A model generated the notes under the pieces. That model made no database searches and was not told the origin of the DNA. It worked only from the letters and a program-made list of their open reading frames with translations. 31,351 nt of DNA. Origin: a virus. Its lineage: Duplodnaviria; Caudoviricetes. Location: positions 1-31,351 of IMG/VR virus record IMGVR_UViG_3300025296_000078, one strand, 5' to 3'. This document shows, piece after piece, positions 9,568-10,305 of the stretch (position 1 is its first letter; the number at the start of each line of letters is the position of its first letter). Both the position numbers and the translations under genes were made by a program.

Positions 9568-9690
9568 GACTCTGGACAAATTCATGAAACAGTGCTCCTT
9601 GTATTGTTATTCATGATTCTGGGGGAGCCTCAAAGTCTTCCTTTCTTGGTTCCCCCTTAAAATCAATGCAAAAGATATGGAGGTAATCTT

Positions 9691-9765
9691 ATGAAGTGGT
9701 CAAAACCTGCGTACACGGAAATGCGTTTGGGCTTTGAAGTAACGATGTATATACATACTCGGTAG
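9691..9765 (+). CDS. pqqA: pyrroloquinoline quinone precursor peptide PqqA
   Basis: Translates [25 protein letters not shown]-x-x-P leader and R-x-G-F-E-V-T-M-Y core with the E-x3-Y cross-link residues; GGAGGT RBS at 9679-9684. Confidence 0.93.
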
Positions 9766-9768
9766 GCT

Positions 9769-10305
9769 ATGGGTAAACAACATAAAAAAATGGACCTCAA
9801 AAAAGAAGAGTGGTGTGAGGAGTATGTCTCAAACGGTCAACGTGCCAATGATGCTACCTTGATGGTCTATGAACCATCAAGCATAAAGCAGGCAAAAGAA
9901 AAGACGAGAATGATACTTCAGGACCAACAAGTTACTGCTTTTATGCGGGGCTTCCTATTTGCTAACAAAGCGACTCAACTTGCAGGGGGCGTTATTGTCA
10001 ATGGTCTTAAAGCTGAGAAGGTCATCCGTGATAGAGATGGTGTTGAAGTAGGCAGAGAACCTGACCATAATACCCGCTTTAAGTTCTTGGAGCCTGTAGA
10101 TAAGATACTCAATATCTATCCTAAAGAGGAAGATATTAAAAGCGAAGATGATTTGGTTATGGAAAGAGCTGAGGCTTATGCAAAGCTGAATCTAACTGAT
10201 GATGAAGCAGATTACATGATTCATCATAACGCACAGAAACCTACCCCAGAAGAACTGGAAGAATGGATTGATCGAGAAATCACAGTCGACATCATCGAAG
10301 AGTAA
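9769..10305 (+). CDS. terS: terminase small subunit (putative)
   Basis: N-terminal 'WCEEYVSNGQRANDATLMVY' HTH-like pattern, EPDHNTRFKFLE motif, directly upstream of terL. Confidence 0.7.
   Translation: MGKQHKKMDLKKEEWCEEYVSNGQRANDATLMVYEPSSIKQAKEKTRMILQDQQVTAFMRGFLFANKATQLAGGVIVNGLKAEKVIRDRDGVEVGREPDHNTRFKFLEPVDKILNIYPKEEDIKSEDDLVMERAEAYAKLNLTDDEADYMIHHNAQKPTPEELEEWIDREITVDIIEE

What the first reader, a model, noticed from the sequence alone, without database searches (positions are those of the whole stretch)
9679..9771. Phage-encoded PqqA as first gene of the DNA-packaging operon
Seen: a 24-codon ORF missed by the ORF track, [24 protein letters not shown], with GGAGGT RBS, ending 3 nt before the terS ATG and downstream of a sigma70-like promoter. 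Known: PqqA is the ribosomal precursor of PQQ; its Glu and Tyr (E-x3-Y) are cross-linked by PqqE/PqqD, and one peptide is consumed per cofactor. No pqqB-E is present in the window. Inference: the phage supplies only the stoichiometric substrate to the host PQQ pathway, boosting periplasmic methanol/alcohol/glucose dehydrogenases late in infection, or acts as a decoy for PqqD/E. It also points to a PQQ-producing, possibly methylotrophic, host. I cannot tell how widely this has been reported.
Basis: partly seen in the sequence, partly recalled or inferred. Interest (0 to 1): 0.88.

Follow-up and report, generated by a model that had tools for sequence, protein, structure and literature searches.

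The report
Phage PQQ-precursor gene leading packaging operon
An uncultured marine phage carries a real, conserved 24-codon copy of pqqA, the peptide that bacteria use up to make the cofactor PQQ, directly in front of its DNA-packaging genes, and it likely feeds extra precursor to the host's PQQ enzymes during infection; virus-borne pqqA is common and already in print.

Summary
Confirmed. ORF 9691-9765(+) is PqqA (Pfam E 1.9e-11; TIGR02107 46.7 bits, cut-off 20), with GGAGGT at 9679 and a stop 3 nt before a terS-like gene. Other assemblies show the same junction, so it is no chimera. A diverged relative (L147) keeps it (5 synonymous, 2 amino-acid changes), and there the stop overlaps the terS start.

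It is not new. Viral pqqA was reported from Lake Baikal (2020) and reservoir sediments (2026), and this scan already holds 86 similar notes on other DNA. About 3,100 IMG/VR stretches carry a PqqA motif, against 2 for PqqB and 1 for PqqE. With Glu16 and Tyr20 left free in the search, 119 of 119 copies keep both, which favours a real substrate over a decoy. Nine cultured Methylophilales/Methylophilaceae phage records carry it unannotated.

The packaging-operon position is lineage-specific: 30 of 79 viral copies lie antisense to both neighbours, and only 2 sit directly before terL. Late timing, translation and the host are not shown. The peptide is gammaproteobacterial in type but not the Methylophilaceae variant.

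Verdict: new member of a known auxiliary-gene kind; interest 0.36.

The parts
9691..9765 (+). pqqA, 24-aa PQQ precursor peptide (Glu16-x3-Tyr20)
   Evidence: PF08042 and TIGR02107 over cut-off; kept in L128, L129, L147; pS 0.35 against pN 0.035 versus L147
9679..9684 (+). Shine-Dalgarno GGAGGT of pqqA, predicted in the loop of a weak hairpin
   Evidence: strongest anti-SD pairing (-10.6 kcal/mol) of 28 plus-strand starts tested; GGAGG kept in L147; fold not significant against shuffles
9504..9569 (.). 66-nt block identical in L147, holding back-to-back sigma70-like sites (+ 9539-9567 with TG; - 9550-9522) and the start of the leftward 132-aa ORF; likely divergent promoter
   Evidence: population variants fall on both sides of it. 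Partly coding, and nearby genes are also very similar, so support is modest
9621..9656 (+). G+C-rich leader stem-loop; stem kept and loop variable in L147; no U-tract, so not a canonical terminator
   Evidence: z about -1 to -2; two sequences only
9769..10305 (+). terminase small subunit-like gene, 178 aa; weak SD of its own; starts 3 nt after the pqqA stop (stop and start overlap in L147 and in X11/X18 variants)
10268..11992 (+). terminase large subunit; the window copy lacks 99 nt in frame near 10575 that L128, L129 and contigs of X1, X2 hold
   Evidence: phrog_2
9133..9531 (-). 132-aa ORF of no known family, divergent neighbour, followed by a trypsin-like protease (8315-9133)

Best explanation
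This is a genuine stand-alone pqqA gene in a marine tailed phage, and it likely works as a substrate top-up: the peptide would be made from its strong ribosome-binding site at the front of the rightward packaging transcript and would be turned into extra PQQ by the host's own PqqB-E. Shown: family membership, intact Glu16/Tyr20, no pqqB-E nearby, conservation in a diverged relative, and adjacency to terS. Established (PMC9851590 and PMC12124388, passages): PqqE, with the chaperone PqqD, cross-links Glu and Tyr of PqqA, and further enzymes finish PQQ. Recalled: one peptide is spent per cofactor, while the enzymes are reused. Inferred: that the peptide is translated in infection; that precursor supply limits PQQ in the infected cell; that extra PQQ keeps periplasmic methanol, alcohol or glucose dehydrogenases feeding respiration; that the host is a PQQ-making gammaproteobacterium; and that terS translation is coupled to pqqA, which would tie the peptide to packaging-gene expression and make it hard to lose in this lineage.
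For: HMM hits over cut-off. About 3,100 viral stretches hold a PqqA motif (an estimate from 3 of 64 parts), against 2 for a PqqB and 1 for a PqqE motif. These patterns detect 36 of 37, 17 of 18 and 8 of 8 bacterial control loci, so the excess is not host contamination. 0 of 88 viral pqqA loci (70 with at least 1.5 kb downstream) have pqqB-E, against 7 of 7 bacterial loci. With both positions left free, Glu16 and Tyr20 are present in 119 of 119 copies (120 loci fetched, one not read by the script; 109 distinct coding sequences; pS 0.58, pN 0.11), while third positions vary. Window versus L147: 5 synonymous and 2 non-synonymous changes, both in the tail; Logan variants show the same pattern. Bacteria multiply pqqA themselves: 29 of 64 positive genomes among 400 Gammaproteobacteria have two or more matches (a few weak ones lie in long frames), and the strain in PMC9851590 has five copies. 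Nine records of cultured Methylophilales/Methylophilaceae phages of different genome types carry it. The pqqA SD is the strongest of 28 tested; terS scores -3.0 in the window and +0.9 in L147, where stop and start overlap.
Against: No translation, timing or PQQ measurement exists here. The host is unknown: the best bacterial peptides are only 17 of 22 identical, and no cultured phage exceeds about 26% terL identity. PMC9851590 names PqqB and PqqC as possibly rate-limiting and reports only a limited gain from over-expressing pqqABCDE in Methylovorus, so precursor limitation is not established. A late transcript leaves little time for a multi-step cofactor pathway to pay off (inference). Related phages with 36-68% terL identity show no pqqA near terL (several have short flanks), so the gene is dispensable for this virion type. 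One contig each in X11 and X12 leaves the window sequence at 9574 and does not rejoin it, possibly an allele without pqqA at this site. Weak SDs are common in this genome, so coupling is not proven.
Confidence: 0.66

Rival explanations
1. Regulatory leader or passenger: in this lineage the ORF is kept mainly because its strong SD and short frame deliver ribosomes to the SD-poor terS; PQQ output is incidental.
For: Strongest SD in the late arm, weak or no SD at terS, and stop-start distance of 3 nt or overlap in all variants seen.
Against: A leader needs no fixed peptide, yet changes are mostly synonymous and the core is intact. 30 of 79 viral copies lie antisense to both neighbours and lead nothing.
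Confidence: 0.1
2. Chemical receptor blocking: extra PQQ would close a PqqU-type TonB-dependent receptor, excluding superinfecting phages or stopping progeny from binding to debris at lysis, which would suit late expression.
For: PQQ blocks infection by a PqqU-using coliphage, and PQQ-bound PqqU is predicted to clash with its receptor-binding proteins (PMC12124388, passages). Many gammaproteobacterial PqqU carriers also make PQQ (section 11). Virion, terminase or lysis genes flank several viral copies.
Against: Only 23% of PqqU carriers have PQQ biosynthesis genes. The receptor and host of this phage are unknown, and PqqU in Methylophilaceae was not tested. Unrelated phage types would all need PQQ-sensitive receptors.
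Confidence: 0.08
3. Decoy or sink: the peptide ties up PqqD/PqqE and lowers host PQQ.
For: Only the absence of pqqB-E; a very abundant peptide could in principle saturate PqqD.
Against: Glu and Tyr are kept in 119 of 119 copies when left free. Venkman, P19250A and MEP301 peptides are 91-100% alike and look like ordinary substrates. Caveat: decoys that also changed the flanking residues would escape the pattern.
Confidence: 0.06
4. Host benefit in a temperate or chronic state, or redox protection: PQQ helps the carrier cell (antioxidant, shared good) rather than the lytic burst.
For: Many viral copies are self-standing cassettes opposite to their neighbours, consistent with a host-read promoter; the site here is sigma70-like.
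Against: No integrase or repressor was among the 30 window proteins scanned (record incomplete). Sharing a transcript with terS would be costly in a lysogen.
Confidence: 0.08
5. Artefact or neutral relic: chimeric assembly or a recent host fragment under no selection.
For: The same window has a 99-nt in-frame gap in terL that other assemblies lack, so the record is not flawless.
Against: The junction recurs in L128, L129, L147 and in contigs of X1, X2, X11, X12, X18. GC is 42.7% against 43.2% for the window. It is retained on both of two terS alleles whose first 60 codons differ at pS 0.62.
Confidence: 0.02

Closest known systems
Bacterial PqqA (Pfam PF08042, TIGR02107), including orphan extra copies
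   Same: Length, W-x2-P...R-x-G-x-E-x-T-x-Y layout, Glu-x3-Tyr core, strong SD; scores over both curated cut-offs.
   Different: Sits in a phage before terS instead of before pqqB. By eye, many bacterial copies have a sigma54-like TGGCAC...TGC site upstream (label recalled), which the phage lacks. No identical peptide found (best 17 of 22).
Viral PqqA of Lake Baikal population VP_266 (Coutinho et al. 2020, PMC7678222 and its preprint; passages read)
   Same: Virus-encoded pqqA proposed as an auxiliary gene that boosts host PQQ.
   Different: That is a freshwater T4-like Methylophilaceae virus that also encodes methanol dehydrogenase. This is a marine phage with an SU10-type portal, no dehydrogenase in the window, another peptide type and an unknown host.
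Virus-encoded pqqA/pqqD/pqqE in reservoir sediments (PMC13188868; passages read, supplements not opened)
   Same: Lists pqqA among viral auxiliary genes.
   Different: Framed as phosphate solubilisation; the passages give no gene context or mechanism.
Unannotated pqqA in cultured Methylophilales/Methylophilaceae phages (Melnitz x4, Venkman, P19250A, MEP301, MEP401, MEP402)
   Same: Lone pqqA missed by annotation; in MEP402 the next co-oriented gene also starts 3 nt after the stop.
   Different: Mostly the Methylophilaceae-type peptide and other gene contexts. A term search of the main texts of PMC9004378 and PMC10580990 found no mention of pqqA.

Membership tests
PqqA | Score above the curated HMM cut-off | tested here: met
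   44.1 bits against 21.1; 46.7 against 20
PqqA | Short stand-alone ORF (about 23-30 aa) with SD | tested here: met
   24 aa, GGAGGT 6 nt upstream
PqqA | Glu-x3-Tyr core near the C-terminus | tested here: met
   E16 and Y20; unchanged in L147 and in listed population variants
PqqA | Cross-linked by PqqD/PqqE and converted to PQQ | not testable with these tools
   Needs complementation or an in vitro assay
pqq biosynthesis operon (pqqABCDE) | pqqB-E adjacent | tested here: not met
   No tblastn hit in the window, relatives or 88 viral loci; 7 of 7 bacterial controls hit. It is an orphan pqqA, not an operon.
Viral auxiliary metabolic gene | Flanked by viral genes on a bona fide viral contig and found in several assemblies | tested here: met
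   terL, portal, capsid and adaptor hits
Viral auxiliary metabolic gene | Under purifying selection | tested here: met
   pN/pS about 0.1 versus L147 (only 7 changes); about 0.19 across 109 distinct viral copies, part of whose positions were fixed by the search pattern
Viral auxiliary metabolic gene | Expressed in infection and alters host metabolism | not testable with these tools
   No raw-read RNA run or culture was available
Terminase small subunit (downstream gene) | terS profile match and position before terL | tested here: inconclusive
   Position met; no direct hit for the window protein; an 85%-identical relative hits phrog_51 at E 5.8e-5
Methylophilaceae-infecting phage | Methylophilaceae-type peptide or kinship to cultured OM43/LD28 phages | tested here: not met
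   13-16 of 22 identity to the cultured-phage peptides; no Methylophilales phage among the listed terL or capsid matches (15 of 400 terL records listed)

The most novel reading that the evidence does not exclude
pqqA is one of the commonest overlooked phage auxiliary genes (about 1 in 1,000 IMG/VR contigs), picked up repeatedly from several PQQ-making hosts. In this lineage it has become the obligatory translational leader of the packaging operon, so that every packaging transcript also makes PQQ precursor, and the late PQQ pulse serves partly to shut PqqU-type receptors against superinfection or progeny re-adsorption.
Probability: 0.1. Interest if true: 0.75.

Novelty: new member of a known kind. 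Interest (0 to 1): 0.36.

Why it matters
This copy is one more example of a reported gene type. The wider pattern matters more: phages carry the consumed precursor of a peptide-derived cofactor roughly a thousand times more often than its enzymes, standard gene calling misses it, and it sits unannotated in cultured OM43/LD28 phage-host pairs, so whether phages boost PQQ-dependent methanol or alcohol oxidation can be tested at the bench now. This copy adds an uncultured marine lineage with a non-Methylophilaceae peptide, which suggests another PQQ-making host group, and a probable translational coupling to terS.

Tried and rejected
Host assignment failed. A GTDB pattern scan gave 6 unclassified Gammaproteobacteria MAGs with 13-16 of 22 identity; none of the 5 tested holds this terL. 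The closest peptide's genome (G082) is alone in its order and has no TIGR03075 dehydrogenase over cut-off. Cultured phages are distant.

Expression: no RNA holder listed. X20 is only guessed to be RNA; its contigs cover 8922-9787, including pqqA but not most of terS. It is one study, contigs only, so it is not counted as evidence.

Other blanks: no Rfam family or tRNA in the window; no solved structure of the peptide; the leader fold is not significant (z -1.3); the exact peptide is absent from the 15-billion protein collection, consistent with missed gene calls. A scan for the promoter block found only the two known contigs, so the allele that leaves at 9574 could not be read. No complex or structure prediction was run (24-aa enzyme substrate).

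Literature searches. None listed a paper on pqqA next to terS or on pqqA in cultured OM43 phages; subscription journals and supplements were not seen. PMC11118758 and PMC9564219 (passages) do not report phage-borne pqqA in the passages shown. The review PMC7736144 was not held.

Full report
Observation. The 24-codon ORF lies at 9691-9765 on the plus strand, with GGAGGT at 9679-9684 and the next ATG at 9769. It scores far above the curated cut-offs of PF08042 and TIGR02107 and is the only match in the record. A PqqA pattern matched once in the window and in 0 of 100 shuffles. The window is a tailed-phage record: terL, an SU10-type portal, a capsid protein and two adaptors lie to the right; a protease, a metallophosphoesterase, gp88 and a Tas-like nuclease lie to the left on the other strand. 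pqqA is the first gene of the rightward arm. The gene after it is probably terS, by position and by a relative's match to phrog_51, though it has no direct hit.

Not an artefact. L128 and L129 are identical over the junction. Single contigs of X1 (possibly the source) and X2 span it. Twenty runs from 17 studies hold the stretch or part of it, all labelled marine or seawater. GC of the gene equals that of the genome.

Conservation in the lineage. Two scans with a terL alignment gave 153 new loci. A PqqA profile run over these and L128-L132 hit only L128, L129, L227 (the same contig as L129) and L147. L147 keeps pqqA with 5 synonymous and 2 non-synonymous changes (I21V, T23I), while the first 60 codons of terS differ at pS 0.62 and terL at only 0.06. 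So pqqA has stayed in place on two well-diverged terS alleles in an otherwise close background. In L147, and in variants in X11 and X18, the pqqA stop overlaps the terS start. A 66-nt block with back-to-back sigma70-like sites is identical in L147, and the leader hairpin keeps its stem; both are modest evidence. pqqA has the strongest SD of 28 plus-strand starts tested and terS a weak one or none, which suggests coupling, but weak SDs are common here. Phages with 36-68% terL identity show no pqqA in the DNA held, some with short flanks. One contig each in X11 and X12 leaves the window sequence at 9574 and may be a pqqA-less allele.

Wider pattern. A PqqA motif occurs in about 3,100 IMG/VR stretches (estimated from 3 of 64 parts), a PqqB motif in 2 and a PqqE motif in 1. 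The patterns recover 36 of 37, 17 of 18 and 8 of 8 bacterial controls. None of 88 viral pqqA loci (the 80 of 120 that had long flanks, plus 8) has pqqB-E, against 7 of 7 bacterial loci. A scan that left positions 16 and 20 free returned Glu and Tyr in 119 of 119 readable copies of 120 loci; this sample overlaps that, and the flanking residues were fixed by the pattern. Context varies: of 79 loci, 30 have both neighbours on the other strand and 26 have both co-oriented. Among 71 co-oriented neighbours, terL follows directly in 2 loci and a capsid gene precedes in 5; others are virion, lysis, Hsp20, RegA or SSB genes. The packaging-operon position is therefore one solution among many. Nine records of cultured Methylophilales/Methylophilaceae phages carry the gene unannotated. 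NCBI lists further such phages that gave no hit; I did not check whether they are in the collection. The two 'Acinetobacter phage MD-2021a' hits are not comparable: the one opened is a full pqqA-E operon among chromosomal genes.

Host. Most viral copies are of the Methylophilaceae type; this one is not. The best bacterial peptides among about 40 examined reach 17 of 22 identity, in unnamed Gammaproteobacteria. 64 of 400 sampled Gammaproteobacteria have pqqA, 29 of them with two or more matches (the tally includes G044, an unpublished genome, whose locus is also one control row). The host is likely a PQQ-making gammaproteobacterium; methylotrophy is not shown.

Mechanism. PqqE with PqqD cross-links Glu and Tyr of PqqA, and further enzymes finish PQQ (PMC9851590 and PMC12124388, passages). 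That one peptide is spent per cofactor is recalled. A 75-nt gene is then the cheapest way for a phage to push the pathway, which fits the thousand-fold excess of pqqA over pqqB/E and the multi-copy habit of bacteria. I put substrate top-up at 0.66. Against it: no expression or activity data, and PMC9851590 names PqqB/C as possibly limiting. Rivals are a leader role for terS (0.10), receptor blocking by PQQ as described for PqqU and a coliphage (0.08; PMC12124388, passages and section 11), host benefit in a carrier state (0.08), decoy (0.06) and artefact (0.02).

Novelty. Viral pqqA is in print: Lake Baikal VP_266 (PMC7678222 and preprint, passages) and reservoir sediments (PMC13188868, passages). 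Term searches in the Melnitz and MEP401/402 papers found no mention. Seven literature searches listed nothing on a pqqA-terS link; supplements and subscription journals were not seen and could hold such annotations. This scan already holds 86 notes on phage pqqA in at least 76 genomes, none on this DNA and none naming a terminase link. Verdict: real, a new member of a known kind, interest 0.36.

Noticed in passing
window 1102-1974 (-): 290-aa protein scores just over the cut-off of NF052498, TIGR-Tas RNA-guided endonuclease (103.5 against 100 bits). No 30-42-nt periodic array was evident by TRF or a lag scan, so this may be an orphan Tas, or the array lies outside the window or is too degenerate.
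   Followed up: partly
window about 10575, in terL: 99-nt in-frame gap in the ATPase half of terL relative to L128, L129 and contigs of X1 and X2; likely an assembly error or a defective variant.
   Followed up: partly
L147:1-377 (-): The trypsin-like protease of this relative lacks a long in-frame middle stretch present in the window.
   Followed up: no
window 9574 onward; X11 and X12 contigs: A population variant shares the promoter block and then diverges for at least 169-255 nt; possibly another cargo gene in place of pqqA.
   Followed up: partly
window 5942-6608: Long non-coding stretch with A/T tracts, a G+C-rich patch and a near-consensus TTGACA-17-TAGAAT site before the ORF ending at 5942 (-); large hairpins at 4669-4732, 5017-5074 and 5681-5734; short direct repeats at 186-263, possibly an origin.
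   Followed up: no
window 25438-28128 (+): 896-aa fibre-like protein with 62-aa (186-nt) tandem repeats; C-terminus matches phrog_18251.
   Followed up: no
L149:501-3473 / P0008: The terL of a relative is much longer than the others, with an intein-like insertion (my reading of the alignment).
   Followed up: no
L016 (gene after pqqA, 2726-3913 -): A viral pqqA is followed by a 396-aa gene whose start resembles NAD-dependent formate dehydrogenase (recalled resemblance; PHROG gives only phrog_26092, unknown), a possible second C1 auxiliary gene.
   Followed up: no
L127 (CAKLQF020000010.1): A record filed as 'Acinetobacter phage MD-2021a' is a chromosomal stretch with a full pqq operon whose pqqA is unannotated.
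   Followed up: partly
L151:237-743 (-): A distant terL relative without pqqA carries a ferritin-like ORF (judged by eye from its translation).
   Followed up: no
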